Positions 40,526-50,172 of a stretch of DNA of 54,960 nucleotides are shown here, in pieces (within the stretch, counting starts at the first letter, position 1; each line of letters begins with the position of its first letter). The stretch comes from a virus. Its lineage: Duplodnaviria > Caudoviricetes. The position numbers were made by a program, and so were the translations under genes. The notes beneath the pieces are model-generated. The model did not search any database, was not told the origin of the DNA, and was given only the letters and a program-made list of their open reading frames with translations. Location of the stretch: the IMG/VR virus record IMGVR_UViG_3300046028_005371, positions 1 to 54,960 of that record. One strand, given 5' to 3'.

Positions 40526-40529
40526 TTTC

Positions 40530-40593: not shown

Positions 40594-40597
40594 AAAC

Positions 40598-40673: not shown

Positions 40674-40687
40674 ATTAAAATTATTTA

Positions 40688-40867
40688 TTAACCGCCTTGG
40701 ATTGAGTCTTTAACTTCTGATCTTTTAGCAATCTCTTCGAACGCTTCATCTTCATTTTTCTGATCTTCTATTGTGCGAGGATCGGGCTTACGAAAAATTG
40801 CATCATAGTTATTACTAAACTGATTCTGACTAACACTATATGGACGAGGTCTGCTACCTTTGCTCAT
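40688..40867 (-). CDS. Small hypothetical phage protein
   Basis: 59 aa, MSKGSRPRPYSV...NYDAIF; AAGGA RBS. Confidence 0.65.
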   Translation of the reverse strand: MSKGSRPRPYSVSQNQFSNNYDAIFRKPDPRTIEDQKNEDEAFEEIAKRSEVKDSIQGG

Positions 40868-40883
40868 GTTAATTTCCTTTATA

Positions 40884-40958
40884 TGGTGGACCGAGGGAGG
40901 ATCGAACTCCCACCCGAGGCTTGCAAAGCCACTGTGCTCCCATTATCACTATCAGCCC
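40884..40958 (-). tRNA. tRNA-Ala(UGC)
   Basis: Cloverleaf; G3:U70. Confidence 0.9.
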
Positions 40959-40967
40959 ATTGTATTT

Positions 40968-41102
40968 TCATCTTGTAAACTTACGAATAAACATAAGCCA
41001 GTAATATCGAAAACCTCGATATGTTGTCCAGATTTCAAAACTAGGAGTACATTCTCTAGGAATGTTGCCATAGGCACGATCTAAAACATCTTTTGATTTC
41101 AT
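40968..41102 (-). CDS. Small hypothetical protein
   Basis: 44 aa, MKSKDVLDRAYGNIPRE...; AAGGAG RBS. Confidence 0.6.
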   Translation of the reverse strand: MKSKDVLDRAYGNIPRECTPSFEIWTTYRGFRYYWLMFIRKFTR

Positions 41103-41121
41103 ACCTACTCCTTTTTATTTG

Positions 41122-41198
41122 TGGTGCCCTGGGAGAGACTCGAACTCTCAGCTTACGGCTTCTAAGACCGCTGTGTTTACCAATTTCACCACCGGGGC
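41122..41198 (-). tRNA. tRNA-Leu(UAG), short variable loop
   Basis: Loop CUUAGAA; 5-nt variable region. Confidence 0.85.
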
Positions 41199-41206
41199 AT
41201 AAAACT

Positions 41207-41235
41207 ATTGTAACAGGATATTTATAAACTGTCAA
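41207..41235 (-). promoter_or_regulatory. Sigma70-type promoter inside the tRNA array
   Basis: TTGACA-17nt-TACAAT. Confidence 0.7.
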
Positions 41236-41325
41236 TGGTCCCGCAGTGTGGAATCGAACCACATCCTGGACCTTATCTAGATTAATCGCTTATAAAACGA
41301 CCTGCTCTCCTTGAGCTACTGCGGG
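41236..41325 (-). tRNA. tRNA with UAU (Ile) anticodon and long variable arm
   Basis: Loop UUUAUAA; variable region of about 20 nt. Confidence 0.8.
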
Positions 41326-41334
41326 AAAAACTAT

Positions 41335-41410
41335 TGGCGTCCCATAGCGGATTCGAACCGCTGTGAATACCGTGAAAGGGTACTATCCTAGGCCTCTAGA
41401 TGAATGGGAC
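41335..41410 (-). tRNA. tRNA-Glu(UUC)
   Basis: Cloverleaf; GCCA end. Confidence 0.92.
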
Positions 41411-41419
41411 AAATAAAAT

Positions 41420-41545
41420 GTTAGGTGTGCTATTACGCTAAAAGGGAATTAATCCTTACCAGTTACGGGGTGACCTTTTACTTCCTAGACTATATCTAGG
41501 CCCTACTCCTTAGAGGATGGACGCTTTTAATCCCACCTTCCTAAC
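41420..41545 (-). ncRNA. Unassigned ~125-nt structured RNA
   Basis: Closing stem GUUAGG/CCUAAC; hairpin CCUAGA/UCUAGG. Confidence 0.4.
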
Positions 41546-41546
41546 C

Positions 41547-41632
41547 ATATAAAAACACACTCTTAAACTCTTCTTCAGCTTCTAGTCGCTATCTCCCTTA
41601 CTAATCGGGCGTTGAGTAAGTGTGTTTATATA
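41547..41632 (-). ncRNA. Stem-closed intergenic RNA (AAACACAC...GUGUGUUU family)
   Basis: AAACACACU/AGUGUGUUU closing stem. Confidence 0.5.
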
Positions 41633-41719
41633 TGGTGCGAGTGGCCGGAATCGAACCGGCACGCCGATTAAAGCGAGAGATTTTAAGTCTCTTGTGTCTA
41701 CCTATTTCACCACACTCGC
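41633..41719 (-). tRNA. tRNA-Leu(UAA), canonical class II
   Basis: Long variable arm. Confidence 0.93.
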
Positions 41720-41773
41720 AAATGCTTTTTTACAATTTTAAAGAACAGTGTTAATTGCTTAACATAAGCATAT

Positions 41774-41802
41774 ATTATAGCATCGTTCTGCGTGTGTGTC
41801 AA
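41774..41802 (-). promoter_or_regulatory. Sigma70-type promoter inside the tRNA array
   Basis: TTGACA-17nt-TATAAT. Confidence 0.85.
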
Positions 41803-41803
41803 G

Positions 41804-41877
41804 TGGTGCTCAGGGAAAGAATCGAACTTTCTATCCAGTCTTACTAAGACTGTGTTATACCATTTAACTACAAGAGC
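41804..41877 (-). tRNA. tRNA-Thr(AGU)
   Basis: Stem CAGUC/GACUG, loop UUAGUAA; two acceptor-stem mismatches. Confidence 0.75.
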
Positions 41878-41880
41878 AGT

Positions 41881-41955
41881 TGGTCTCGCCACCCCGAATC
41901 GAACAGGGATCAAAAGTTTAGGAAACTTCTATTCTATCCGTTGAACTATAGCGAG
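41881..41955 (-). tRNA. tRNA-Arg(CCU)
   Basis: Loop UUCCUAA. Confidence 0.88.
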
Positions 41956-41960
41956 ATGTG

Positions 41961-42035
41961 TGGTCCGGCGTAACAGAATCGAACTGCTGTTTAGAAGGTA
42001 GAAGCTTCCTGTATTTTCCACTATACGAACGCCAG
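41961..42035 (-). tRNA. tRNA-Arg(UCU)
   Basis: Loop CUUCUAC. Confidence 0.88.
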
Positions 42036-42038
42036 ATA

Positions 42039-42112
42039 TGGTAGTTCCTGAAAGAATTGAACTTTCGTCTTCACCGTGTCGAGGTAGCGTTCTACCATTG
42101 AACTAAGGAACT
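42039..42112 (-). tRNA. tRNA-Val(GAC)
   Basis: Loop UCGACAC (C33). Confidence 0.82.
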
Positions 42113-42116
42113 GAAT

Positions 42117-42193
42117 TGGTACCCCTGGGCAGATTCGAACCGCCAACCAACAGATTTTAAGTCTATCCGCACTACCAATTAGCGTACAGGGGC
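42117..42193 (-). tRNA. tRNA-Leu(UAA), short variable loop
   Basis: Loop CUUAAAA; variable region UGGUU. Confidence 0.85.
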
Positions 42194-42194
42194 A

Positions 42195-42464
42195 TTATAG
42201 ATTAAACACGCTGTCCAACCACCAATGTGGAAATAATGGATCATCGTATAATTCTTGCTTGCGAAGATAACCTTTTTCAAAGTCTTCCTTCCACATTTCA
42301 ATATGGACGTTAAGCCATTGCTTGCCAACGTAGTATCCATTTCGTTGTCTGTCTGTTATGTTAGTTCCGTGTGACTCATAGTTGAACATTTCAACTAGAG
42401 ACTCTTCACTGTAGTCTAATACATGTTCCCATTGACGAGAAAATATTCGATAGACTTCAGACAT
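42195..42464 (-). CDS. Hypothetical phage protein
   Basis: 89-aa ORF between tRNAs; FPHWWLD. Confidence 0.7.
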   Translation of the reverse strand: MSEVYRIFSRQWEHVLDYSEESLVEMFNYESHGTNITDRQRNGYYVGKQWLNVHIEMWKEDFEKGYLRKQELYDDPLFPHWWLDSVFNL

Positions 42465-42525
42465 TTTACGAAACTTGTTACTTACTTTGCGTTTAGCGAT
42501 GACATAGCATCCTCCTATTAAATTT

Positions 42526-42602
42526 TGGTACCTTCAGGCGGATTCGAACCCCCAACCACCTGCTTCTAAGGCAAGCCGCACTACCAATTAGCGTACGAAG
42601 GC
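42526..42602 (-). tRNA. tRNA-Leu(UAG), short variable loop
   Basis: Loop CUUAGAA; same D arm as 42117 and 42676. Confidence 0.85.
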
Positions 42603-42608
42603 AAATAA

Positions 42609-42669
42609 AACAGGATCAACTTTGATTTCATTTACAGTGAAAGTTTTTAAGTTTGCTGAACTGATCCTA
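42609..42669 (-). ncRNA. Anticodon-display repeat, copy 2 (Tyr GUA loop)
   Basis: UAGGAUCAG-UUCAGCAA...UUUCA-CUGUAAA-UGAAA...UUGAUCCUGUU. Confidence 0.75.
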
Positions 42670-42675
42670 AAACTT

Positions 42676-42752
42676 TGGTACCCCGTGTCTGATTCGAACA
42701 GACATCCAACAGATTTTGAATCTATCCGCACTACCAATTAGCGTAACGGGGC
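42676..42752 (-). tRNA. tRNA-Leu(CAA), short variable loop
   Basis: Loop UUCAAAA. Confidence 0.85.
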
Positions 42753-42757
42753 ATATA

Positions 42758-42810
42758 TGGTGGTGGACTTCTGGGCCCATGGAACCCATCACCTCGCGAG
42801 TACGTCCACC
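42758..42810 (-). ncRNA. 53-nt T-armless mini-tRNA-like RNA
   Basis: GGUGGAC/GUCCACC-A-CCA acceptor; UGGGU-UCCAUGG-GCCCA stem-loop. Confidence 0.7.
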
Positions 42811-42816
42811 GTAACT

Positions 42817-42892
42817 TGGTACCAACTTGAGGGATCGAACCTCATTCCACGGTGCTTCAAACCGTTGCTATGACCACATCAGCTAAGTTGGC
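42817..42892 (-). tRNA. tRNA-Phe(GAA)
   Basis: Loop UUGAAGC (G37). Confidence 0.85.
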
Positions 42893-42898
42893 AAATTT

Positions 42899-42972
42899 TG
42901 GGTTGAACCGGGGAATCGAACCCTCTCTAACTGTTTCACAGACAGTTGTGCGACCACTACACTAGGAACAAC
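42899..42972 (-). tRNA. tRNA-His(GUG)
   Basis: G-1:C73; loop CUGUGAA. Confidence 0.85.
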
Positions 42973-42978
42973 ATTGAA

Positions 42979-43055
42979 TGGTGCAACCGGAGAGATTCGA
43001 ACTCCCGACACCTGACTTCGTAGGCCAGTGCTCTATCCAACTGAGCTACGGTCGC
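42979..43055 (-). tRNA. tRNA-Arg(ACG)
   Basis: Cloverleaf. Confidence 0.93.
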
Positions 43056-43061
43056 ATTATT

Positions 43062-43137
43062 TGGCAGGGGAGATGAGATTCGAACTCATGATGACGATTT
43101 CAAAGACCGTTGCCTTAGGCCACTAGGCGACACCCCA
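43062..43137 (-). tRNA. tRNA-Gln(UUG)
   Basis: Cloverleaf; GCCA end. Confidence 0.9.
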
Positions 43138-43146
43138 ACAATTGAA

Positions 43147-43359
43147 TTTGTAAGTAGTTCCCCCATCGTTATAGGAACCATTCACCCGTGTAATAAATCC
43201 GGACGGGATTCGGTAAGTCACTTGGGATACTAGTCCAGTTTGTCTCCGTTACAGACACCACCCTTCCGAGTGGTTGGGAGTTGAACCCATCACCTTCTAC
43301 TGCTTCGGTCCTTCGAAGAAACCTAGACAGCATGACATTCTCTTGCTGACACTTACAAA
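43147..43359 (-). ncRNA. Unassigned ~213-nt highly structured RNA
   Basis: 9-bp closing stem UUUGUAAGU/ACUUACAAA; multiple tetraloop hairpins; T-loop-like GGGUUCAACUCCC. Confidence 0.65.
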
Positions 43360-43362
43360 ACT

Positions 43363-43438
43363 TGGTAGTAACGGTGGGACTCGAACCCACGATCGACACC
43401 GTATGAAGGTGGTGCATTAGCCACTATGCTACGTTACC
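43363..43438 (-). tRNA. tRNA with CAU anticodon (elongator Met or Ile2)
   Basis: Loop UUCAUAC. Confidence 0.85.
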
Positions 43439-43519
43439 ATAGAAAAACACACTCAAGTCCGCGGCACGGAAGGCACTATACCCGCGATGGTCTATGACCA
43501 GGCCTAATGTGTTTATCTA
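43439..43519 (-). ncRNA. Stem-closed intergenic RNA (AAACACA...UGUGUUU family)
   Basis: AGAUAAACACAUU/AGUGUGUUUUUCU closing stem; GC-rich interior. Confidence 0.5.
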
Positions 43520-43595
43520 TGGTAGGACCGCTGGGACTCGAACCCAGAATTGGCAGATTAAAAGTCTGCTGTGATAACCATTTCACTACGATCCC
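43520..43595 (-). tRNA. tRNA-Lys(UUU)
   Basis: Loop CUUUUAA. Confidence 0.92.
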
Positions 43596-43600
43596 ATGTA

Positions 43601-43677
43601 TGGTCCACAGCGTCAGATTCGAACTGACACCTCATCGGTTAAGAGCCGAGTACGCTACCGTTAAACGCCAGCTGTGG
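43601..43677 (-). tRNA. tRNA-Lys(CUU)
   Basis: Loop CUCUUAA. Confidence 0.87.
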
Positions 43678-43700
43678 ATAGTTACGTATTAAATTTTCTT

Positions 43701-43769
43701 TTACGTGCCTATCCAAGACCATACATGGGATCTTAGAAGACACTAAAGTTTAGCAGAGCTTCGCTTCAT
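43701..43769 (-). promoter_or_regulatory. Mini-ORF MKRSSAKL-UAG followed by a long hairpin
   Basis: AGAGG RBS; hairpin GUGUCUUCUAAGAUC/GGUCUUGGAUAGGCAC starts at the stop codon. Confidence 0.45.
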
Positions 43770-43797
43770 TGTGTTACCTCTTTGTGTTTAAGTTAGT

Positions 43798-43826
43798 ATT
43801 ATACAACCTTTTGCAGTAGTTGTCAA
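43798..43826 (-). promoter_or_regulatory. Sigma70-type promoter inside the tRNA array
   Basis: TTGACA-17nt-TATAAT. Confidence 0.85.
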
Positions 43827-43838
43827 CTGTTTTTGTTT

Positions 43839-43898
43839 AACAGGATTCGCTTTTTTTCATTTACAGTGAAAGTTTTTAAATTTGCTGAAAGAATCCTA
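43839..43898 (-). ncRNA. Anticodon-display repeat, copy 3 (Tyr GUA loop)
   Basis: UAGGAUUC-UUUCAGCAA...UUUCA-CUGUAAA-UGAAA...GAAUCCUGUU. Confidence 0.75.
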
Positions 43899-43902
43899 AA
43901 CT

Positions 43903-43977
43903 TGGTACTGTCGACGGGTATCGATCCCGCTTCTCCACCTTGAAAGGGTAGCGTCCTAGCCACTAGACGACGACAGT
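43903..43977 (-). tRNA. tRNA-Glu(UUC)
   Basis: Loop CUUUCAA; A54-type T loop. Confidence 0.87.
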
Positions 43978-43984
43978 GTAATAA

Positions 43985-44043
43985 AACAGGATGCTTATTT
44001 TTCAATTAAAAGTTGAATTTTATAAGTTGCTGAACGCATCCTA
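43985..44043 (-). ncRNA. Anticodon-display repeat, copy 4 (Lys UUU loop)
   Basis: UAGGAUGC-GUUCAGCAA...UUCAA-CUUUUAA-UUGAA...GCAUCCUGUU. Confidence 0.75.
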
Positions 44044-44047
44044 AACT

Positions 44048-44122
44048 TGGTAGCCACGGACAATTTTGAAATGTCGACTTATCGCTTATCAAGCGATTAC
44101 TCTGCCTCTGAGTTACGCGGCT
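44048..44122 (-). tRNA. tRNA-Ile(GAU)
   Basis: AUCGC-UUGAUAA-GCGAU; 5' end overlaps the HNH stop codon. Confidence 0.85.
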
Positions 44123-44568
44123 AATTTTCTATTTCTGCCACGCCATGTTGGTGTTTGTGCGTGACAGTTTGGACAAAGACACTCTAAATTAGATCTGTCA
44201 TTGTTTTTGTTGTTTCCATCGATATGGTCTAATTCTAAGCTAAGAGATTCTCCTAACCAATCAGTTAGACCACACTTGTTACATTTATGATCTTGCTCAA
44301 TTAACACTTTCTTACGACGGCCATCGTGGCCTAGTAATTTAGTGTCCGAAGATAGTAATCGTTGTTTAGCAGTAGCAGATCTACCGTTAGACCCTTTTAG
44401 CGACCGCTGTTTTAATTTTTCTTTGCCAAAGGAAGAAAATACTTCCTTTAATTGTTTTGATCTTTCTTCTTTTTGTATATCTGTCCATGTTCTACTATTA
44501 GCACATGTTCTACTACAAAAAATTCCAGGCTTAGTGTGTGCTGTGTTGCACTTAGGGCATAGTTTCAT
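44113..44568 (-). mobile_element. Free-standing HNH homing endonuclease
   Basis: CNKCG...LELDHIDGN..NN...NL..LCPNCH; N-terminal FCSRTC Zn finger. Confidence 0.9.
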
Positions 44569-44606
44569 AATCGCATATCCTTATAACAAATATATTTATC
44601 CGTTAT

Positions 44607-44637
44607 GCGAATCGTTATACCATTTAACTATCCGGGA
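44607..44637 (-). pseudogene. Orphan tRNA 5' half upstream of the HNH gene
   Basis: UCCCGGA-UAGUUAAAUGGUAUAAC-GAUUCGC is an acceptor strand plus D arm with no matching 3' half. Confidence 0.65.
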
Positions 44638-44643
44638 AAAATT

Positions 44644-44718
44644 TGGTGGAGGCCGGGGGTATCGAACCCCACTAGACATGATCATTGCAAGTGAACACCG
44701 CAGCCCTCTGCTGCCCCC
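44644..44718 (-). tRNA. Atypical tRNA-Ala(UGC)
   Basis: G3:U70; loop CUUGCAA; compact D hairpin GCAG-AGGG-CUGC. Confidence 0.7.
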
Positions 44719-44724
44719 AAATAC

Positions 44725-44800
44725 TGGCTCCCCGAGTACGGATCGAACGTACGACATCTTCGTTAACAGCGAAGCGCAACTACCTCTGTGCTATCGGGGA
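44725..44800 (-). tRNA. tRNA-Asn(GUU)
   Basis: Cloverleaf. Confidence 0.9.
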
Positions 44801-44806
44801 ATAAAC

Positions 44807-44883
44807 TGGAATGAGGAGTGGGATTTGAACCCACGAACAACAGTTTTGCAGACTGCGCCATTAGACCTCTCTGGCACCCTCAT
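44807..44883 (-). tRNA. tRNA-Cys(GCA)
   Basis: U73; loop CUGCAAA. Confidence 0.9.
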
Positions 44884-44890
44884 ATAACTT

Positions 44891-44964
44891 TGGCGTACCT
44901 CCAAGGACTCGAACCTTGACTGACGGTTTTGGAGACCGCGATGCTGCCATTACACTAGAGATAC
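44891..44964 (-). tRNA. tRNA-Trp(CCA)
   Basis: Cloverleaf. Confidence 0.92.
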
Positions 44965-44970
44965 ATAACT

Positions 44971-45046
44971 TGGTTGCGGGTGTTGGATTTGAACCAACGA
45001 TGCTCCTGGCTTATGAGACCGGAGTAGTGACCGGGCCTTACCCGCA
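44971..45046 (-). tRNA. tRNA-Met(CAU)-like with degenerate D arm
   Basis: Acceptor and T arm intact; loop CUCAUAA. Confidence 0.7.
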
Positions 45047-45054
45047 ATATACTT

Positions 45055-45144
45055 TGGCGGAACGACTGAGACTCGAACTCAGAACCCGGATTACGCCGAG
45101 CGACAGATTAGCAATCTGCTCTAATACCATTATAGGACCGTTCC
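45055..45144 (-). tRNA. tRNA-Ser(GCU)
   Basis: Long variable arm; G73. Confidence 0.92.
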
Positions 45145-45157
45145 TTAATTCATTAAC

Positions 45158-45272
45158 TGGTACGACCGGTAGGTTTCGAACCTACAAGAGCACGGTAACT
45201 ATGTTATGTGCCCCTTCCCCATTCTATGCTATGAGCATAGCGGGAGGTCTGCCATATTCCACTTACGGTCGC
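45158..45272 (-). tRNA. 115-nt tRNA-like RNA with extended anticodon arm (CAU loop) and long variable arm
   Basis: GCGACCG/CGGUCGU-ACCA; T arm GUAGG-UUCGAAA-CCUAC; CUAUG-CUCAUAG-CAUAG stacked on an extra helix. Confidence 0.7.
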
Positions 45273-45280
45273 ATAATGTA

Positions 45281-45309
45281 ATTATACAATCTTATGTGGA
45301 CTTTGTCAA
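45281..45309 (-). promoter_or_regulatory. Sigma70-type promoter inside the tRNA array
   Basis: TTGACA-17nt-TATAAT. Confidence 0.85.
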
Positions 45310-45316
45310 TAACTAT

Positions 45317-45408
45317 TGGCGGAAAGCAGAGGAGTCGAACCCCATCCCCGTTAAGAGAACCTGGTTTTCAAGGCCAGTCGCAGGACCATCCCCGCTGCAT
45401 TACTTTCC
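45317..45408 (-). tRNA. tRNA-Ser(UGA), probable 8/4 fold
   Basis: 8-bp acceptor GGAAAGUA/UGCUUUCC; 4-bp T stem; loop CUUGAAA. Confidence 0.8.
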
Positions 45409-45414
45409 ATATCT

Positions 45415-45490
45415 TGGTCTCCCATGAAGGACTCGAACCTTCGATTTCCTCGTTCCAAACAAGGAGGCATAGCCGCTAGCCCAATGAGAG
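45415..45490 (-). tRNA. tRNA-Pro(UGG)
   Basis: Loop UUUGGAA (A37). Confidence 0.87.
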
Positions 45491-45497
45491 GTAAACT

Positions 45498-45572
45498 TGG
45501 CGATCCTGCGGGGAATCGAACCCCGATATCCGACTAGACAGGCCGGTATAATAACCACTATATGACAAGACC
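45498..45572 (-). tRNA. tRNA-Asp(GUC)
   Basis: Loop CUGUCUA (U37). Confidence 0.87.
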
Positions 45573-45578
45573 ATAACT

Positions 45579-45653
45579 TGGTGCTCCGTGAAGGAATCGA
45601 ACCCTCTTCTGACGCTTACAAGGCGCCTGCATCGCCACTAATGCTTACAGAGC
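45579..45653 (-). tRNA. tRNA-Thr(UGU)
   Basis: Cloverleaf. Confidence 0.9.
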
Positions 45654-45658
45654 TAATT

Positions 45659-45746
45659 TGGTGTAGCGTGATGGAATCGAACCACTTGACTGCCACCCTG
45701 CTTAATAAGTCTACCGGGTTACAGCCGGCAACAGGGAACACACTAC
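45659..45746 (-). tRNA. D-armless tRNA-Tyr(GUA)-like RNA
   Basis: Acceptor GUAGUGU/ACGCUAC-ACCA; UGCCGG-CUGUAAC-CCGGUA; T arm present; no D hairpin. Confidence 0.7.
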
Positions 45747-45751
45747 ATATT

Positions 45752-45835
45752 TGGTGGATGCGGTTGGATTCGAACCAACGTGCTGTTACGAACGGATTTA
45801 CAGTCCGTCACCTTCGGCCTCTCGGTCACACATCC
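45752..45835 (-). tRNA. tRNA-Tyr(GUA)
   Basis: Canonical class II cloverleaf. Confidence 0.92.
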
Positions 45836-45844
45836 AATTTGTTA

Positions 45845-45972
45845 ACACACTCACGACCGGTAATTACCAATCCATAAGCAAACTATGTTCACTTATAAAG
45901 AATGTGTGTATTAAAATGTTCTAGACTATATCCGTTCCGGCGCTTTCAAGGCGCTATGAAAACATTTTAATA
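45845..45972 (-). ncRNA. Two tandem stem-closed RNAs; the upstream one shows a Ser(UGA)-like anticodon loop
   Basis: UAUUAAAAUGUU/AACAUUUUAAUA enclosing GCGC-CUUGAAA-GCGC; ACACAUUC/GAGUGUGU enclosing two hairpins. Confidence 0.5.
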
Positions 45973-45973
45973 C

Positions 45974-46080
45974 GCTGTAATTTTTCACACTAGAAGAAGT
46001 GCTTCATCCTACAGGCCGCCCATTTGCCCATGTTTTAAGTGCGGGCTAGGATCTCGTTTCCTATAACACTTTGCGGTCTA
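45974..46080 (-). ncRNA. Unassigned structured RNA at the head of the tRNA array
   Basis: Pairings UAGGA/UCCUA, GCCCG/UGGGC, AAGUG/CACUU and CUGUA/UACAG. Confidence 0.45.
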
Positions 46081-46083
46081 CAA

Positions 46084-46230
46084 TCACCCTTGAGCAATCT
46101 CGCGCTTTCTATCTGCTTCGTAATACTGTATAGCACGAGACATTTTGTCTTCAAGCAATTTTTTAAACTGCTCCGGACTTAGCGTATGCTGTCTAGTAAA
46201 CTCTGCTTCTTTAATCTTTCTATCTGTCAT
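46084..46230 (-). CDS. Small hypothetical protein immediately after the attenuator
   Basis: 48 aa, MTDRKIKEAEF...; AAGGA RBS. Confidence 0.6.
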   Translation of the reverse strand: MTDRKIKEAEFTRQHTLSPEQFKKLLEDKMSRAIQYYEADRKREIAQG

Positions 46231-46242
46231 TCTTCCTTTTCC

Positions 46243-46278
46243 AAAAACAAAAAACCCCAGGGTTTTTAATCCTAGGGT
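46243..46278 (-). terminator. Intrinsic terminator, conditional (overlaps antiterminator)
   Basis: ACCCUAGG/CCUGGGGU stem followed by a U tract (UUUUUGUUUUU). Confidence 0.8.
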
Positions 46279-46303
46279 CCTTGGAGTTTGCGTGTAATTT
46301 GTG

Positions 46304-46450
46304 TTACACAATGTCCTCCCGGACCCTTAAAATCTCTGGTGTGCGATCATATGATAAACTTCCGCAATTAATCGCTAGCCAGTTGGAGGCTATAAAGCCT
46401 ACCTGTTTGGGCATCGTATTAAATTGTTGATGTCTAGCAATGTTTTGCAT
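46304..46450 (-). CDS. Putative attenuator leader peptide (48 aa, all 20 amino acids)
   Basis: MQNIARHQQFNTMPKQVGFIASNWLAINCGSLSYDRTPEILRVREDIV; 3' end forms the antiterminator strand. Confidence 0.7.
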   Translation of the reverse strand: MQNIARHQQFNTMPKQVGFIASNWLAINCGSLSYDRTPEILRVREDIV

Positions 46451-46510
46451 TTTGTTTTCTCTTAAACCCTTTTGTTTTACATGAACAGCATCATTGCTGT
46501 CTATGTGTTA

Positions 46511-46539
46511 ATTATACAGTTATTTAGTCTTCTTGTCAA
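46511..46539 (-). promoter_or_regulatory. Sigma70-type promoter heading the leader and tRNA array
   Basis: TTGACA-17nt-TATAAT; TAAATA in spacer. Confidence 0.85.
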
Positions 46540-46570
46540 CTACTTTTTGCAATTTTGACAAATTATTTTT

Positions 46571-46586
46571 GTTGTATTTTTACAAC
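46571..46586. repeat. Palindromic operator-like motif, copy 1
   Basis: GTTGTA-TTTT-TACAAC; identical copy at 47116-47131. Confidence 0.6.
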
Positions 46587-46591
46587 ACATT

Positions 46592-46666
46592 TGGTCCGGC
46601 CTACAGGAATCGAACCTGTATTGATAGCTTAGAAGGCTACTGTTCTATCCATTGAACTAAGGCCAG
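46592..46666 (-). tRNA. tRNA-Arg(UCU)
   Basis: Cloverleaf; loop CUUCUAA. Confidence 0.92.
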
Positions 46667-46673
46667 TTGTCTT

Positions 46674-46702
46674 ATTATACTAAAAAATTCTCAGTCTGTC
46701 AA
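46674..46702 (-). promoter_or_regulatory. Sigma70-type promoter for tRNA-Arg(UCU)
   Basis: TTGACA-17nt-TATAAT. Confidence 0.8.
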
Positions 46703-46900
46703 CTCAACAAATGTCCTACCCTTGAGGTCTAAGTCTAGCGGCTTCTTGAATCGTTGCACCACCTTTGAGCCTGCCGGCACATAAGCAATAGCCCTGGCAC
46801 TCCGGCCCACGGGCTTCTCTTTAAATATGTAGACATGGTTGGCCCCACCGTTTTCCCACTCGGTGGTCTCCTGCATAATTTTAATCAATTTGGATGTCAT
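46691..46900 (-). CDS. Hypothetical phage protein
   Basis: QETTEW...NHVY...DLKGRTF. Confidence 0.65.
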   Translation of the reverse strand: MTSKLIKIMQETTEWENGGANHVYIFKEKPVGRSARAIAYVPAGSKVVQRFKKPLDLDLKGRTFVELTD

Positions 46901-47066
46901 GGATACGTCCTTGTTTAAAAATGTAGTAAAGATTCATAAAACTATAATAGACCCAGATGCAGTCGTTGCCTTGAGTCATTGTATAGTGTGTAATCCCTTT
47001 CTTAGACATATCCTCTTCAACAAGGATGACTTCGAGTGGGTTAAGTGCTGGATGTATATTAATCAT
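46881..47066 (-). CDS. Hypothetical phage protein
   Basis: Start at MINIHP directly after a promoter. Confidence 0.55.
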   Translation of the reverse strand: MINIHPALNPLEVILVEEDMSKKGITHYTMTQGNDCIWVYYSFMNLYYIFKQGRIHDIQID

Positions 47067-47075
47067 GTTGTATAT

Positions 47076-47104
47076 ATTATAGCACGGTTTTACCACTTTG
47101 TCAA
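47076..47104 (-). promoter_or_regulatory. Sigma70-type promoter
   Basis: TTGACA-17nt-TATAAT. Confidence 0.85.
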
Positions 47105-47115
47105 CCTCTTTTAGC

Positions 47116-47131
47116 GTTGTATTTTTACAAC
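47116..47131. repeat. Palindromic operator-like motif, copy 2
   Basis: GTTGTATTTTTACAAC just upstream of the -35 box. Confidence 0.6.
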
Positions 47132-47143
47132 TTATTTAAAGTT

Positions 47144-47704
47144 TTATAACAGTGATTCTAGTTTAAAAATTAACTCAGGGTCAATCTTACTGATCCATTC
47201 TTTTATACTATGTCTTTCTAAGTTAATATTTTGTGCATTCCTAGTAACTGCATATTTAAAATCAAAACACATAAGTTGACCGTTTTTTCCAGTCAAATTA
47301 CACATAGCATTATTTAATTTATACATATTATGCTGTTTAAAAAATTTAAACATATGTTCTATTTGTTCTGTTATATTAGGAAAGACAATATTTAAATCAT
47401 TGCGGGGATATTGTAATAAGTCCGGCCCCGGCCACTCTTGCAAAATATAATATCCAAATTGATCGTCTAATTTGCCATGTTCATATGTTTTTACTAATAG
47501 ATCCGATTTTAATTTTGTAGACCAATATATTTCATTTTTATAAAGTTTGTTAATTTCTTCTATGGTATTATGCACTGGTGGACGATTTTGAATAGTATTG
47601 CCGTTAATTTTATAGTATTTTTTAACCAATTTTTCATCTTTGTCTATCCATACTTCGGCTAAACTTCCTCTAGATCCATTAACTGAATAATATCGTTCAA
47701 ACAT
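47144..47704 (-). CDS. Protein-kinase-like fold protein
   Basis: GSRGSLAEV, VKK, ILQEW, N...NL and CFDF motifs. Confidence 0.55.
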   Translation of the reverse strand: MFERYYSVNGSRGSLAEVWIDKDEKLVKKYYKINGNTIQNRPPVHNTIEEINKLYKNEIYWSTKLKSDLLVKTYEHGKLDDQFGYYILQEWPGPDLLQYPRNDLNIVFPNITEQIEHMFKFFKQHNMYKLNNAMCNLTGKNGQLMCFDFKYAVTRNAQNINLERHSIKEWISKIDPELIFKLESLL

Positions 47705-48434
47705 ATAAATTATCAATAATCTCTGTGTAATAAGTTTCTAAAATATCTGTCACGTATGATATTTTATCTGCATTGAAATCTTCATTGAGTTGGGTGGATA
47801 GCCAAGACAATATTGCTGCTGTGTCTTTGTTTGATAATAATGTATAAAAATCAAAATATTCTGTAACAGGTTTGTTGTTAAATTTCTTCAATGAATAGTT
47901 CCAAAATATATCAGTCAATGGATAACATATTTTACACCTAGTACTTTGATATAAATTTGCTATTTCTGTCTTTGGAATTAGTGAAATACATCGAATGTTA
48001 TATCCAAGATCCTGCATTTCTTTAAAAGGAATAGCTTTATCCCAAGAATGAATTCCGTATAATATTCTATAATTTTTCATTTCATATTTAGAATTTTCGT
48101 AAAATTTTAATTTGGTATCCCCCCAATTCCACTGTTGTTGGCCGGCCAATAAATGTGTTCCTAAAAATTCAAAAAATTGAACATAGTCATTTATACCAGT
48201 GGGTTCACAACGGTCTAAAAACCAATTAGTAATTCTTTTTGGTACAATTATTTCATATGCTATCTCTCTAGAAGATTTATGAGAATTAATAGGAATATCA
48301 GATAAAATTTTAGTATTGGTATAATCTAATTTAATATCCAACTCTGACCAAATACGCATTAGAAGTTGACCGGATCCGCCGGGTAAATAGTCGAACAATA
48401 TTAATTCATTATTTGTTAAAAATGGGTATTTCAT
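47697..48434 (-). CDS. Hypothetical protein, possible sulfotransferase-like P-loop
   Basis: DYLPGGSGQLL N-terminal loop. Confidence 0.45.
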   Translation of the reverse strand: MKYPFLTNNELILFDYLPGGSGQLLMRIWSELDIKLDYTNTKILSDIPINSHKSSREIAYEIIVPKRITNWFLDRCEPTGINDYVQFFEFLGTHLLAGQQQWNWGDTKLKFYENSKYEMKNYRILYGIHSWDKAIPFKEMQDLGYNIRCISLIPKTEIANLYQSTRCKICYPLTDIFWNYSLKKFNNKPVTEYFDFYTLLSNKDTAAILSWLSTQLNEDFNADKISYVTDILETYYTEIIDNLYV

Positions 48435-49405
48435 TGTTTTGTTTTAGTGGTTAACAGATCATGAAAACACCCACATGTAACCTTATTACAAATAACTGCG
48501 TTATTAGAAAAATTATACTTAAGATCGTCAACATGTCCAATTGGGCCAGTGACTCCACATACTGATCTGTTAATAGTCTGGAAGTTAATGTCCAAGAAAT
48601 CTTTTCCTACCTGACATTCCCATCCTAAAAATTTATTCCATTTATTTTTCATAAGTTGTTGAACGTTAATATTTTTTGTAATTCCTAAATTATTAGTTAC
48701 TAATAATTCAGCACCTAACCGTAACTTATTTGGAATAGGAGATTTTTTTTTAATATTTGTTAGTATTCCAGGTTTATAACTAGCGTGTTTAATAATAGAT
48801 AGTTCTTCCTCTGAGTATAGGTCATAGATATCATATTCGTCAATATTCATTCCTTTAATATCAATTATTCCACCAGTGTTGTTTATTAAATAATTAAATG
48901 CGTTAATTGCTTGAGGAATATTATCTTTAGTATGTGTAACTTCACATACTGTTTCAGTTTCAAAATTAAGAAATAAATTCATTATATCAGCAATATTATT
49001 ATAATCAACCGTTTGTTCAGCATGATATGTTAATGCTAGACGAGTTAATATATTATCAATTTTGGCCAATTCTTTCCACCAGCGCATTGTTCTAGAACCG
49101 TTACTTGCTAATATATTCCAAGCACCTTTATTTTTTGAATGCTGCAATAACTCTATTAAATCAGGATATAATGTAGGTTCACCTCCAGTATAAACAATAT
49201 AAAAAGGAGTTCCTACACATGCCTCAGCAATTTTATCAACAATTGATTTGTACTTTTCTAATGTAAACCACCGTTCATTTCCACTATTATTTTCTTTACC
49301 ACAAAAACTACACGAGTAATTGCATACATTATGTAGTTTCCAGTTAATTACTTTAAATGGTTGAGGGACTGATCTTTTAACGTGAATTGGATATACATTA
49401 TTCAT
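48431..49405 (-). CDS. Radical SAM protein
   Basis: CNYSCSFC, TGGEPT, SNG; C-terminal Cys cluster. Confidence 0.88.
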   Translation of the reverse strand: MNNVYPIHVKRSVPQPFKVINWKLHNVCNYSCSFCGKENNSGNERWFTLEKYKSIVDKIAEACVGTPFYIVYTGGEPTLYPDLIELLQHSKNKGAWNILASNGSRTMRWWKELAKIDNILTRLALTYHAEQTVDYNNIADIMNLFLNFETETVCEVTHTKDNIPQAINAFNYLINNTGGIIDIKGMNIDEYDIYDLYSEEELSIIKHASYKPGILTNIKKKSPIPNKLRLGAELLVTNNLGITKNINVQQLMKNKWNKFLGWECQVGKDFLDINFQTINRSVCGVTGPIGHVDDLKYNFSNNAVICNKVTCGCFHDLLTTKTKQ

Positions 49406-50172
49406 AATTTTAGTAAGTGACTTATGCATAAACGATTGACTGATCCCCGTTTAAAACTTATATATTTTTCAGAGTAATCTAATCCAAATAATATAGTATT
49501 AGACGGTATAAGGTTAAATTCTTGGCAAACAGCTAATTGAGAATCTTTATATTTTTGTATCATTGAGTCCGGAGACATTGTATCTAATAATGTATAATGA
49601 TGTTCAGCACAGGCTACTAGTGGATAATGCCACTGCGAATATACGGTTACTGGATACGGATCTACGGTATATAATAATCCAACTCTATGTAATCCTGTGC
49701 CAAAAGATTTAGATAATGAAAAACAAACACTGTGTATATTTTTATAACTAGAAAAATCAAAATCTATATCGTGACATACTCCAAAAAAAGCACAGTCAAC
49801 AAATATGGGTTTATTATAAGAATCTGCAATTTTAATTTTTTCATGTGAACTCATTCCGTCAGCACTAAATGGATGACTTACTACTATTGCATCTGCTTCG
49901 TCTAAATTAAAAGTAACACGATTTTTAATAACCAATGAATGATAGCCATATTCACTTTCAAATATTCCTATCTTATTATACATTCCATACATTTGATTAA
50001 ATGCATCAGTTACACCTGATACAATATAATATGATTTAGGCAATCCTTTTACCGGTTGAGTGGATGAGTGAATCCATTTATTAAATTTTTCTTTAAATTT
50101 AATAAATTGAGAAATATCTACTGATTCTGGCTCTATTGCAATTGCTGCATTTGTTATTTTATCAAATCTCAT
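49402..50172 (-). CDS. PLP-dependent aminotransferase-like enzyme
   Basis: GVTDAF, VDCAF, FSLSKSF, RVG; paralog of 31918-32841. Confidence 0.8.
   Translation of the reverse strand: MRFDKITNAAIAIEPESVDISQFIKFKEKFNKWIHSSTQPVKGLPKSYYIVSGVTDAFNQMYGMYNKIGIFESEYGYHSLVIKNRVTFNLDEADAIVVSHPFSADGMSSHEKIKIADSYNKPIFVDCAFFGVCHDIDFDFSSYKNIHSVCFSLSKSFGTGLHRVGLLYTVDPYPVTVYSQWHYPLVACAEHHYTLLDTMSPDSMIQKYKDSQLAVCQEFNLIPSNTILFGLDYSEKYISFKRGSVNRLCISHLLKL

What the first reader, a model, noticed from the sequence alone, without database searches (positions are those of the whole stretch)
46243..46539. Leader-peptide attenuator that samples the tRNA pool and gates the phage tRNA array
Seen in sequence: a consensus sigma70 promoter (46511-46539) precedes a 48-codon ORF (46450-46304). 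The ORF uses all 20 amino acids (19 by codon 35, Glu at codon 39) and 37 distinct codons, including AGA, AGG, CGG, ATA and CTA. Its 3' end (AGGGUCC-G-GGAG...UGUGUAA) can pair with UUACACG...CUCC-AA-GGACCCU. That GGACCCU overlaps the 5' arm of an intrinsic terminator (ACCCUAGG/CCUGGGGU plus U tract), so the two folds exclude each other. The tRNA array lies directly downstream. Established: ribosome-coupled attenuators (trp, his) use this logic but sense one or a few amino acids. Inference: smooth translation melts the antiterminator and terminates, while a stall at any depleted or cleaved tRNA allows readthrough. This would be a general tRNA-depletion sensor that induces replacement tRNAs. Caveats: the RBS is weak (AAGAGA), and internal promoters at 45281, 43798, 41774 and 41207 mean only the first block depends solely on it.
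Basis: partly seen in the sequence, partly recalled or inferred. Interest (0 to 1): 0.93.

Follow-up and report, generated by a model that had tools for sequence, protein, structure and literature searches.

The report
All-amino-acid leader switch before phage tRNAs
An uncultured giant lake phage and about a hundred relatives start their tRNA gene block with a tiny translated gene that evolution keeps stocked with all 20 amino acids and that is wired to a stop/go transcription switch, so they probably transcribe onward when ribosomes decode too slowly.

Summary
A 12/12 sigma70 promoter is followed by a 48-codon ORF (all 20 amino acids, 37 codons). Its stop codon sits in a -25.9 kcal/mol hairpin whose 3' arm overlaps the 5' arm of an intrinsic terminator.

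Comparative evidence:
- 106 relatives in viral contigs; ORF open in 75/75 loci examined.
- All 20 amino acids in 62/66 distinct peptides, against 1.4-4.8% for background or random frames. A phylogeny-aware site-independent null gives 28.5±6.5 of 57; observed 55.
- Cys occurs once and wanders over 9 alignment columns.
- Synonymous codons are over-dispersed across decoding classes.
- The antiterminator folds in 55/55 with covariation.
- 54/55 loci have a same-strand tRNA array downstream.

Most likely this is a ribosome-mediated transcription attenuator. Smooth translation to the stop frees the terminator; a stall in codons 1 to about 37 lets the antiterminator form.

- A small gene (ORF2) and a conserved structured RNA lie between the terminator and the first tRNA.
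- Only the first block is gated.
- No experiment exists.

This scan found the same element before on other genomes. Four literature searches found no description. It is a new variant of leader-peptide attenuation; whiB7 is the closest analogue.

The parts
46511..46539 (-). Sigma70-type promoter TTGACA-17-TATAAT of the leader transcript
   Evidence: 12/12 consensus match. A TTGAC-N-(16-18)-TA...T site was found upstream of the ORF in every locus scanned, which flagged none as lacking one. It is visible in the alignments.
46480..46505 (-). 5'-terminal stem-loop of the leader RNA; role inferred as stabiliser or pause element
   Evidence: dG -9.8, z -3.0. A 5' hairpin with dG <= -6 occurs in 52/52 distinct 5' ends, mean -10.9 against -3.6 for shuffles, and several different stem sequences are used.
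46458..46463 (-). Weak purine-rich ribosome-binding motif AAGAGA in an A-rich spacer
   Evidence: A GAG/GGA motif lies at -12 to -9 from the AUG in 52/58 distinct upstream regions.
46304..46450 (-). Leader ORF (ORF1): 48 codons plus TAA; all 20 amino acids, 37 codons, 34 decoding classes
   Evidence: Open in 75/75 loci at 46-53 codons, with indels in threes or compensated. All 20 amino acids in 62/66 distinct peptides. No Pfam, PHROG or NCBIfam hit.
46331..46351 (-). Nearly invariant codon run Tyr-Asp-Arg-Thr-Pro-Glu-Ile just upstream of the antiterminator 5' arm
   Evidence: D, R, P, E and I are invariant, and Y and T nearly so, in 57 distinct peptides. Third codon positions are also almost invariant.
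46274..46327 (-). Antiterminator: three-tier hairpin (AGGGUCC/GGACCCU base, GGAG/CUCC middle, apical helix holding the stop codon)
   Evidence: dG -25.9, z -5.74. Folds in 55/55 distinct relatives, mean dG -26.1. Covariation: base pair AU34/GC13/GU4 and middle pair GC19/GU15/AU14; 76.4% of cells paired against <=49.4% when slid. The stop codon lies 21-28 nt after the 5' arm begins and 26-35 nt before the 3' arm.
46243..46282 (-). Intrinsic terminator AAGGACCCUAGG / CCUGGGGUUUUU with U6GU5 tract; its 5' arm overlaps the antiterminator 3' arm
   Evidence: Nearly invariant in 57 sequences, with one compensatory GC-to-UA change in L052. Mean dG -15.4.
46084..46230 (-). ORF2: 48-aa charged protein of unknown function, RBS AAGGAAG, first gene after the terminator
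   Evidence: Homologue in 37 loci with an ordinary coding pattern (codon-position identity 0.68/0.74/0.575). No family or Atlas hit.
45950..46075 (-). Conserved structured RNA of unknown family between ORF2 and the first tRNA (approximate ends)
   Evidence: A motif for it is present in 39/58 loci. Compensatory changes occur at 4 of 5 pairs of one hairpin and in a 3' hairpin. No Rfam match at E<=1. Contigs from RNA libraries cover it.
45752..45835 (-). tRNA-Tyr (GUA), first tRNA of the block reached by readthrough. No >=9/12 minus-strand promoter-like site lies between the terminator and it.

Best explanation
This is a ribosome-mediated (leader-peptide) transcription attenuator at the head of the phage tRNA region.

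Proposed mechanism:
1. Host sigma70 RNA polymerase starts at the consensus promoter.
2. A ribosome translates the 48-codon leader ORF.
3. If decoding is smooth, the ribosome reaches the stop codon inside the apical part of the long hairpin. It holds the hairpin's 5' strands open, so the 3' arm (GGACCCU) pairs instead with CCUGGGGU. The terminator forms and transcription ends at the U tract.
4. If the ribosome is absent or stalls anywhere in about the first 37 codons, the more stable hairpin (about -26 against -15 kcal/mol) folds first and sequesters the terminator's 5' arm. Polymerase then runs on into ORF2, a conserved structured RNA and the first tRNA block (Tyr, Thr, Asp, Pro in this window).

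Selection keeps every amino acid, and an unusually wide spread of decoding classes, in the sensing part of the ORF. The switch therefore reports shortage of any charged tRNA rather than of one amino acid.

What is shown: the anatomy, its conservation and covariation, selection for all-20 composition and codon spread, and the position before tRNA arrays.

What is inferred: that translation occurs, the direction of the switch, the physiological trigger (starvation, codon-usage mismatch or tRNA-cleaving defence), and the size of the effect.
For: **Anatomy in the window**
- Established.
- The full-length and 93-nt minimum-energy folds keep the antiterminator, not the terminator, so the untranslated default is readthrough.

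**Conservation**
- 74 relatives were found by a single-peptide scan and 106 by an alignment scan.
- Promoter, 5' hairpin, ORF, hairpin and terminator are all retained.

**Translation**
- The frame is open in 75/75 loci, and indels are in threes or compensated.
- The stop codon (TAA in 54, TAG in 1) always lies 0-6 nt before, or in, the apical loop, even where the hairpin carries a 7-nt insertion.

**The constraint is not that of an ordinary protein**
- Codon-position identity to the window is 0.76/0.80/0.78. Neighbouring genes give 0.68/0.74/0.575 (ORF2) and 0.855/0.935/0.594 (the 69-aa ORF).
- Pooled dN/dS is 0.61.

**Selection for all 20 amino acids**
- 54/57, then 7/8 and 1/1 further distinct peptides contain all 20. 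Background is 1.4-4.8%.
- 48/57 reach all 20 before the antiterminator.
- Cys is present exactly once in 49 peptides and twice in 7, spread over 9 alignment columns. Tyr switches between two columns, 47 plus 10 peptides. An internal Met is present in 57/57.
- Tree-based site-independent simulation gives 28.5±6.5 of 57 (maximum 48 in 1000 runs), against 55 observed.

**Spread across codons and tRNA species**
- Decoding classes are 34 in the window and 31-37 in the family. Background is 24.6±2.2 (0/9,994 windows reach 34). Random open frames give 28.7±2.2.
- Given each peptide, expected classes are 29.5 (phage codon usage) or 31.0 (uniform usage), against 34.4 observed. P<0.05 in 84.5% and 57% of 58 ORFs respectively.
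- The window ORF touches 28/30 distinct phage anticodons. Background is 21.2±2.2, and 10/9,994 windows reach 28.

**Antiterminator covariation**
- covariation score 0.151 against 0.121 for shuffles (0/500 reach it); 31 double-change cells against 10.1.

**Genomic context**
- 54/55 loci have a same-strand tRNA array beginning downstream. Upstream genes are not syntenic.
- No >=9/12 minus-strand promoter-like site lies between the terminator and tRNA-Tyr in the window.

**Precedent**
- In the whiB7 uORF attenuator, uORF composition decides which amino-acid shortages are sensed (PMC10274678; abstract and section 7 read).
Against: - There is no direct evidence of translation, termination or regulated readthrough. 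The only RNA data are assembled metatranscriptome contigs, which cannot show ends, strand or level and may contain DNA.
- The ribosome-binding motif is weak.
- The high conservation of third codon positions could reflect an RNA-level function of the ORF region rather than codon identity.
- All relatives belong to one phage group. The statistics therefore rest on related sequences, and the tree used for the null was a quick tree built from the element itself.
- The CM-based alignment captures the apical helix poorly: 57% of cells paired in that helix.
- The tRNAs are not the immediate product.
- 14/58 relatives have a promoter-like site in the gap before the first tRNA.
- Later tRNA blocks in the window have their own consensus promoters, so most of the array is not gated.
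- The window ORF is not enriched in codons read by phage tRNAs: 43/48 are readable, against a background mean of 43.5.
- No anti-antiterminator or pause hairpin of the trp type was found.
Confidence: 0.63

Rival explanations
1. The element is a generic translation or coupling sensor whose real output is ORF2 and/or the structured RNA. On this reading the attenuator works as described. It reports overall ribosome availability or host translation shut-off rather than the tRNA pool. It controls the small protein and the RNA directly behind it, and the tRNAs are mainly driven by their own promoters.
For: - ORF2 starts about 12 nt after the U tract in most loci, and the structured RNA follows the terminator directly where ORF2 is absent.
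- 14/58 loci have a >=10/12 promoter-like site in the gap, mostly about 35-40 nt before the first tRNA.
- Later tRNA blocks have consensus promoters.
- The untranslated default is readthrough.
Against: - A generic sensor would not need all 20 amino acids or an over-dispersed codon set, yet both are maintained.
- In the window and in 44/58 loci no promoter-like site separates the terminator from the first tRNA.
- The element always sits at the array head.
Confidence: 0.17
2. The element is an ordinary small-protein gene with its own promoter and terminator, such as an early gene. The hairpin is only an mRNA-stabilising or terminator-associated structure, and the all-20 composition is inherited by descent.
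For: - The ORF is conserved in length and partly in sequence in about 100 phages.
- dN/dS is below 1 in the pre-hairpin part (0.48).
- A promoter-ORF-terminator cassette is a common phage unit.
Against: - There is no three-base periodicity of conservation, unlike the neighbouring genes.
- Rare residues change position while their presence is kept, which site-independent evolution on the tree does not reproduce.
- The stop codon is placed in the apical helix in 55/55 sequences.
- The overlap of two exclusive helices is conserved with covariation.
- No protein family matches.
Confidence: 0.08
3. The element is a structured non-coding or dual-function RNA. Nucleotide sequence is the selected feature, and the open frame is tolerated or secondary.
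For: - Third codon positions are as conserved as the first and second.
- The whole 266-nt leader folds better than shuffles (z -4.77).
- Small hairpins inside the ORF show some covariation (pairs 147-160 and 150-157).
Against: - The frame is open in 75/75 loci despite indels. ATG and a purine motif are conserved.
- All-20 composition and the relocation of Cys, Tyr, His and Met make sense only if the frame is read.
- No Rfam family matches at E<=1.
Confidence: 0.07
4. ORF1 is a RiPP precursor peptide processed by the radical-SAM enzyme encoded upstream (48431-49429).
For: A radical-SAM gene lies 2 kb upstream, and the peptide is short and contains Cys.
Against: - The upstream genes are not syntenic with the ORF in relatives. 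The 190-aa and 245-aa ORFs have no homologue in the 3-kb upstream flanks. The radical-SAM gene gives only 3 weak hits at 24% identity.
- The Cys position is not conserved.
- A tRNA gene and two promoters separate the two genes.
Confidence: 0.01

Closest known systems
whiB7 (wblC) uORF transcription attenuator of mycobacteria/Actinobacteria (PMC10274678; abstract and section 7 read)
   Same: - A translated upstream ORF, an antiterminator and an intrinsic terminator.
- Stalling in the uORF gives readthrough.
- The response is broad: the paper's screen hit genes for 18/20 amino acids.
- uORF composition decides what is sensed. The M. smegmatis uORF has 19 of 20 amino acids, and removing Trp or His codons removed those responses.
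   Different: - whiB7 uORFs vary in composition between species, are enriched in alanine and often lack several amino acids.
- The regulated gene is a transcription factor of a cellular stress response.
- There is no sequence relationship to the phage element.
- The phage element keeps the full set under selection, spreads codons over decoding classes, and precedes phage tRNA genes.
Classical leader-peptide attenuators of enterobacterial amino-acid operons (trpL, hisL, leuL, pheL, thrL, ilvL); recalled textbook knowledge, no call
   Same: - A short leader ORF, mutually exclusive antiterminator and terminator helices, and ribosome position as the deciding factor.
- A ribosome reaching the leader stop codon favours termination.
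   Different: - Those leaders are 14-32 codons long, with tandem runs of one or a few regulatory codons matched to the operon's product. They also have a 1:2 pause/anti-antiterminator helix, so untranslated RNA terminates.
- Here the ORF is 46-53 codons, with each amino acid present mostly once to a few times and no tandem runs.
- No 1:2 helix was found, so untranslated RNA should read through.
T-box riboswitches (recalled knowledge, no call)
   Same: Transcription antitermination is triggered by shortage of charged tRNA and controls genes of the translation supply chain.
   Different: - A T-box binds one specific uncharged tRNA directly, without a ribosome or an ORF.
- No T-box or other Rfam family matched the leader at E<=1.
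Antibiotic-responsive leader peptides (ermC, cat and ABCF-type attenuators; recalled, and seen only as titles and abstracts in the listing)
   Same: A ribosome stalled in a short leader ORF remodels the downstream RNA to switch on expression, and the untranslated or stalled state is the ON state.
   Different: These depend on specific arrest peptides together with a drug, and many act on translation rather than transcription. There is no requirement for a complete amino-acid set.

Membership tests
Leader-peptide (ribosome-mediated) transcription attenuator | Short ORF with a start codon and ribosome-binding site in the 5' leader, maintained as a reading frame | tested here: met
   ATG start and open frame of 46-53 codons in 75/75 loci, with indels in threes or compensated. 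A GAG/GGA motif lies at -12 to -9 in 52/58 upstream regions.
Leader-peptide (ribosome-mediated) transcription attenuator | Intrinsic terminator between the leader ORF and the regulated genes | tested here: met
   Stem of 8-12 bp plus U6GU5 at 46282-46243, dG about -15. Nearly invariant in 57 sequences, with one compensatory change.
Leader-peptide (ribosome-mediated) transcription attenuator | Alternative antiterminator helix that shares bases with the terminator's 5' arm | tested here: met
   The GGACCCU 3' arm overlaps ACCCUAGG. The hairpin folds in 55/55 sequences, mean dG -26.1. Covariation exceeds shuffles and slid controls.
Leader-peptide (ribosome-mediated) transcription attenuator | End of the ORF placed so that a translating or terminating ribosome disrupts the antiterminator | tested here: met
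   In 55/55 sequences the stop codon lies 21-28 nt after the start of the 5' arm and 26-35 nt before the 3' arm. The ribosome footprint used in the argument is recalled knowledge.
Leader-peptide (ribosome-mediated) transcription attenuator | Regulatory codons matched to the product of the controlled genes, classically in tandem runs of one amino acid | tested here: not met
   There are no tandem runs. Instead all 20 amino acids and 31-37 decoding classes are present. A post-hoc partial match exists between the invariant Tyr-Asp-Arg-Thr-Pro-Glu-Ile codons and the tRNAs at the head of the array.
Leader-peptide (ribosome-mediated) transcription attenuator | Pause/anti-antiterminator (1:2) helix giving termination when the leader is not translated (trp type) | tested here: not met
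   The minimum-energy fold of the full leader keeps the antiterminator. No ORF segment competes for its 5' arm.
Leader-peptide (ribosome-mediated) transcription attenuator | Readthrough rises when the ribosome stalls in the leader (functional test) | not testable with these tools
   Only assembled metatranscriptome contigs are available.
whiB7/wblC uORF attenuator family | Homologous leader upstream of a WhiB-like transcription factor in Actinobacteria | tested here: not met
   The downstream genes are ORF2, a structured RNA and tRNAs. The element occurs in phage contigs from lake water. The resemblance is in mechanism only.
Rfam cis-regulatory families (T-box, known leaders) | Match to a curated covariance model | tested here: not met
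   No match in 46243-46539 at E<=1 with permissive filters.

The most novel reading that the evidence does not exclude
The leader is a sensor of tRNA isoacceptors, not just of amino acids, and forms one side of a feedback loop. Selection spreads its codons over as many decoding classes as possible. In addition, the invariant run Tyr-Asp-Arg-Thr-Pro-Glu-Ile next to the antiterminator is read by the same anticodons (GUA, GUC, ACG, UGU, UGG, UUC, GAU) that dominate the first tRNAs behind the switch. A loss of those tRNAs in the infected cell, for instance through a tRNA-cleaving defence, would therefore directly induce their phage-encoded replacements, together with ORF2 and a new structured RNA that may act in the same counter-defence.
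Probability: 0.3. Interest if true: 0.92.

Novelty: new variant of a known kind. Interest (0 to 1): 0.84.

Why it matters
Leader-peptide attenuation is a textbook mechanism, but known examples watch one or a few amino acids and serve cellular operons. This one appears to be tuned by selection to watch the whole decoding repertoire, and a virus uses it in front of its own tRNA genes. If confirmed, it would have four consequences:
- It would show how giant phages decide when to supplement the host tRNA pool.
- It would give a natural, compact, sigma70-driven "any charged tRNA is short" reporter that can be tested in laboratory bacteria.
- It would link phage tRNA arrays mechanistically to starvation or to tRNA-targeting immunity.
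- It would show selection acting on the composition of a peptide rather than on its sequence.

The unknown small protein and the unknown structured RNA directly behind the switch become candidates for new translation-related or counter-defence functions.

Tried and rejected
**Searches for a known identity**
- Known RNA family: Rfam at E<=1 over 34000-48000 gave only tRNAs and weak chance hits, with nothing in the leader.
- Known protein family: ORF1 and ORF2 have no hit in Pfam, PHROGs or NCBIfam. The ESM Atlas gave no usable hit for ORF2.
- Cultured relatives: blastn of 45800-46720 against GenBank phages matched only the tRNA-Arg gene. tblastn of ORF1 gave only chance hits at E>=5. A 514-aa neighbouring protein found nothing.

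**Hypotheses rejected**
- RiPP precursor: rejected for lack of synteny.

**Analyses that were uninformative or limited**
- RNAalifold on the whole leader returned the terminator and small ORF-internal hairpins but not the antiterminator, because MAFFT misaligns its variable apical part. I therefore folded each sequence separately and built a covariance model. The apical helix remains poorly aligned in A4.
- Metatranscriptomes: only Logan contigs were available. Contigs from RNA libraries cover the following stretches:
  - 46499-46327;
  - 46327-46254;
  - 46248-45973;
  - in a relative lacking ORF2, a stretch that bridges the terminator.

  Three contigs from two studies end at 45992. I draw no conclusion on 3' ends, strand, level or uncovered stretches.
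- Enrichment of phage-tRNA-readable codons in ORF1: none (43/48 against a background of 43.5).
- Literature: four full-text searches found no paper describing a leader ORF or attenuator before phage tRNA genes. Only listings were seen, apart from PMC10274678 (abstract and section 7). Its supplementary uORF table could not be seen, because supplements are closed.

**Earlier scan notes**
- Searches showed that the same element had been reported on at least 7 other genomes. I formed my reading before that look-up and took from the notes only the whiB7 paper lead.
Full report
**What the window is**

The window is a 54,960-bp IMG/VR viral contig, estimated 15% complete, so it comes from a phage genome of several hundred kilobases. 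Near-identical DNA occurs in many lake-water metagenomes. ARAGORN finds 38 tRNA genes on the minus strand between 35025 and 46666.

**Checking the observation**

Reading the minus strand, the order of features is as follows.
- A consensus promoter lies at 46702-46674, followed by tRNA-Arg(UCU) at 46666-46592.
- A second 12/12 consensus promoter lies at 46539-46511.
- A 5'-terminal hairpin lies at 46505-46480 (dG -9.8).
- An A-rich spacer carries AAGAGA.
- A 48-codon ORF lies at 46450-46304.
- A long hairpin lies at 46327-46274 (dG -25.9, z -5.74, 0/200 shuffles as good). The stop codon sits in its apical part.
- A terminator lies at 46282-46243. Its 5' arm shares ACCCU with the hairpin's 3' arm.

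The 266-nt and 93-nt minimum-energy folds keep the long hairpin and not the terminator.

One statement is inexact. The U tract is followed by a second 48-codon gene with a good ribosome-binding site (ORF2, 46230-46084) and a structured RNA. The first tRNA (Tyr, 45835) starts 408 nt after the terminator.

**Is the composition more than chance?**

| Measure | Window ORF | Background |
|---|---|---|
| All 20 amino acids | yes | 136 of 9,994 48-codon windows (1.4%) in this phage's ORFs of at least 150 aa; 3.6% in ORFs of related loci; 4.8% in an i.i.d. model; 4.5% in random open frames with the family's base composition |
| Distinct codons | 37 | mean 28.4; P(>=37) = 0.035% |
| Decoding classes (first two bases plus Y/A/G; 45 possible) | 34 | 24.6±2.2, none of 9,994 windows reaches 34; 28.7±2.2 in random open frames, P(>=34) = 1.2% |
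| Distinct phage anticodons touched (of 30) | 28 | 21.2±2.2; 10/9,994 windows reach 28 |

**Relatives**

- The peptide finds 74 loci in viral contigs at 42-83% identity. An alignment query finds 106, of which 80 were kept.
- GenBank phages hold none.
- The bacterial genome collection gives one hit, a 6.2-kb contig binned as Polynucleobacter. It carries the same leader, terminator, structured RNA and a truncated tRNA-Tyr.
- All 75 loci first examined have an ATG-initiated open frame of 46-53 codons.
- Indels are in multiples of three or compensated, including in the hairpin-coding tail, where the frame is kept through different hairpin variants.
- The promoter, the 5' hairpin (52/52 distinct 5' ends with dG <= -6, using several different stem sequences), the hairpin and the terminator are all retained.

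**The constraint is not that of an ordinary protein**

- Identity to the window at codon positions 1, 2 and 3 is 0.76/0.80/0.78 for ORF1 (n=74).
- The same measure is 0.68/0.74/0.575 for ORF2 (n=37) and 0.855/0.935/0.594 for the upstream 69-aa ORF (n=2).
- Pooled dN/dS is 0.61. It is 0.48 before the hairpin and 1.7 in the hairpin-coding tail.
- Genes upstream of the element are not syntenic among relatives.

**Selection for a complete amino-acid set**

- 54 of 57 distinct peptides hold all 20 amino acids. The misses are one lacking Lys, one lacking Val, and one cut by a contig end and lacking Cys.
- Of 8 further distinct peptides from more distant loci, 7 hold all 20. So does the one from L168. 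The total is 62/66.
- 48/57 reach all 20 by the invariant Glu at codon 36-40, that is, before the antiterminator.
- Rare residues move while their presence is kept:
  - Cys occurs exactly once in 49 peptides and twice in 7, spread over 9 alignment columns.
  - Tyr sits in one column in 47 peptides and in another in the remaining 10.
  - His shifts among 4 columns.
  - An internal Met is present in 57/57 although its usual column holds Met in only 50.
- I tested this against a null. On a tree of the 57 distinct sequences, I simulated site-independent evolution with each column's own residue profile and fitted rate, starting from a root that has all 20. The null keeps all 20 in 28.5±6.5 leaves (maximum 48 in 1000 runs). 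The observed number is 55.
- Caveats: the tree is a quick tree built from the element itself, and the model is simple.

**Codon level**

- Holding each peptide fixed and redrawing synonymous codons gives 29.5 decoding classes with phage codon usage and 31.0 with uniform usage. The observed mean is 34.4.
- P<0.05 in 84.5% and 57% of 58 distinct ORFs respectively. The sequences are related, so these are not independent tests.
- For example, the four Arg codons of the window ORF fall in four different classes.
- This favours sampling of tRNA species and helps explain the conserved third positions.
- ORF1 is not enriched in codons readable by phage tRNAs.

**The RNA switch**

- Folded one by one, 55/55 distinct sequences form the three-tier hairpin (mean dG -26.1, range -20 to -32.5). 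The terminator averages -15.4.
- The apical helix differs in sequence between clades yet still pairs.
- The stop codon (TAA in 54, TAG in 1) starts 21-28 nt after the first base of the 5' arm. It lies 26-35 nt before the 3' arm and 0-6 nt before, or inside, the apical loop.
- On a covariance-model alignment (A4; 55 sequences, 51 distinct), 76.4% of cells pair, against <=49.4% when partners are slid.
- The covariation score is 0.151 against 0.121 for shuffles (0/500 reach it).
- The basal pair is AU34/GC13/GU4 and a middle pair is GC19/GU15/AU14.
- That alignment is fitted to the structure and handles the apical helix poorly.
- The terminator is almost invariant, with one compensatory GC-to-UA change.

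**How it most likely works**

- The following uses a ribosome footprint of roughly -15 to +12 nt around the A site, which is recalled knowledge.
- A ribosome at the stop codon holds the middle and apical 5' strands and the loop. The GGACCCU arm stays free, so the terminator can form.
- A ribosome stalled with its A site at or before about codon 37, or no ribosome at all, leaves the hairpin free to fold first and block the terminator.
- Stalls in about the last 10 codons should not give readthrough.
- This is the logic of leader-peptide attenuation, but without the trp-type 1:2 helix, so the untranslated state is ON.
- That part is inference. No functional data exist.

**What is gated**

- In 54/55 loci scanned, a same-strand tRNA array begins downstream. 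The one exception has only about 520 nt of downstream sequence.
- The 3 kb upstream hold almost no tRNAs. Eight loci have a phage tmRNA 1.4-2.7 kb upstream.
- In 58/60 distinct loci the first tRNA lies 200-961 nt after the terminator (median 421.5).
- 44/58 have no promoter-like site in that gap. 14/58 have one at >=10/12, mostly about 35-40 nt before the first tRNA.
- The gap holds an ORF2-type small gene (homologue in 37 loci) and/or a conserved structured RNA. A motif for that RNA is present in 39/58 loci, and where ORF2 is missing it lies directly behind the terminator.
- The RNA shows compensatory changes at 4 of 5 pairs of one hairpin and has no Rfam match.
- In the window, later tRNA blocks have their own consensus promoters. 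At most the first block (Tyr, a Tyr-like RNA, Thr, Asp, Pro) depends on this switch.

**A post-hoc pattern**

- The nearly invariant codons just before the antiterminator encode Tyr-Asp-Arg-Thr-Pro-Glu-Ile.
- tRNAs with the matching anticodons make up 51/61 first-rank, 41/61 second-rank and 29/61 third-rank array positions.
- Together these are 121/183 of the first three ranks, against 212/618 of later ranks (odds ratio 3.7, uncorrected for relatedness).
- I chose the set after seeing the data, so this is a lead and not a result.

**RNA evidence**

- Four lake or freshwater metatranscriptome runs hold parts of the stretch, but only as assembled contigs.
- The contigs cover the leader from about the start site to the hairpin base, the hairpin and terminator stem, and ORF2 plus the structured RNA.
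- One contig from a relative crosses the terminator.
- These show presence in RNA libraries and nothing more.

**Comparison with what is known**

- The anatomy meets four defining features of leader-peptide attenuators. It fails two: regulatory codon runs and the 1:2 helix.
- The closest analogue in behaviour is the whiB7 uORF attenuator. There, depletion of many amino acids activates expression, and removing Trp or His codons from the uORF removes those responses (PMC10274678, section 7). That uORF is alanine-rich, varies in composition and controls a cellular transcription factor.
- Four full-text searches found no description of a leader ORF or attenuator ahead of phage tRNA genes.
- Earlier agents of this scan reported the same element on at least seven other genomes, with the same reading. 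I reached my reading before that look-up and tested the claims independently here.

**Verdict**

- This is a real, strongly conserved feature. It is most likely a translation-coupled attenuator whose leader is kept as a complete sample of amino acids and a broad sample of decoding classes.
- It controls a small gene, a new structured RNA and the first phage tRNA block.
- It is a new variant of a known kind.
- Confidence in the mechanism is about 0.63, because nothing has been tested at the bench.

Noticed in passing
window 45950-46075 (-), and e.g. L041, L043, L074, L168 directly after the leader terminator: Conserved structured RNA of about 130 nt. It has an invariant enclosing helix (AGUGU/GCACU), a covarying hairpin with loop AACGAG, and a covarying 3' hairpin. 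A motif for it is present in 39/58 loci. It has no Rfam match. Contigs from RNA libraries of two studies end at 45992.
   Followed up: partly
window 46084-46230 (-): ORF2 is a 48-aa highly charged protein that starts about 12 nt after the leader terminator. Homologues occur in 37 related loci with an ordinary coding substitution pattern. It has no Pfam, PHROG, NCBIfam or Atlas hit.
   Followed up: partly
window 46331-46351 (-) versus array heads in 61 loci: The nearly invariant leader codons Tyr-Asp-Arg-Thr-Pro-Glu-Ile are read by the anticodons that dominate the first tRNAs of the arrays. Matching tRNAs fill 84%, 67% and 48% of ranks 1-3, against 34% of later ranks. The set was chosen after seeing the data, and the test is not corrected for relatedness.
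   Followed up: partly
L007, L034, L036, L042, L049, L055, L056, L060 (1.4-2.7 kb upstream of the leader): Phage-encoded tmRNA genes lie on the same strand upstream of the leader in 8 of 55 related loci. None was called in the window.
   Followed up: no
window 46592-46702 (-): A lone tRNA-Arg(UCU) with its own 12/12 consensus promoter sits just upstream of the leader promoter. The same arrangement is seen in L003 and L005.
   Followed up: no
window 45321-45408 and 45662-45747 (-): Two tRNA-like stretches inside the first block were not called by ARAGORN but gave weak tRNA-Sec model hits (34.9 and 25.9 bits, below the gathering score). First-reader notes on this window describe odd tRNA-like RNAs here.
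   Followed up: no
L168 (genome contigs): The only hit in 185,579 species genomes is a 6.2-kb contig of a metagenome-assembled genome titled Polynucleobacter sp. It carries the leader, the structured RNA and a truncated tRNA-Tyr. It is probably a mis-binned phage contig and gives a weak hint at the host.
   Followed up: partly
window 44113-44568 (-): An HNH endonuclease ORF is embedded in the tRNA array (PHROG E 3e-25).
   Followed up: no
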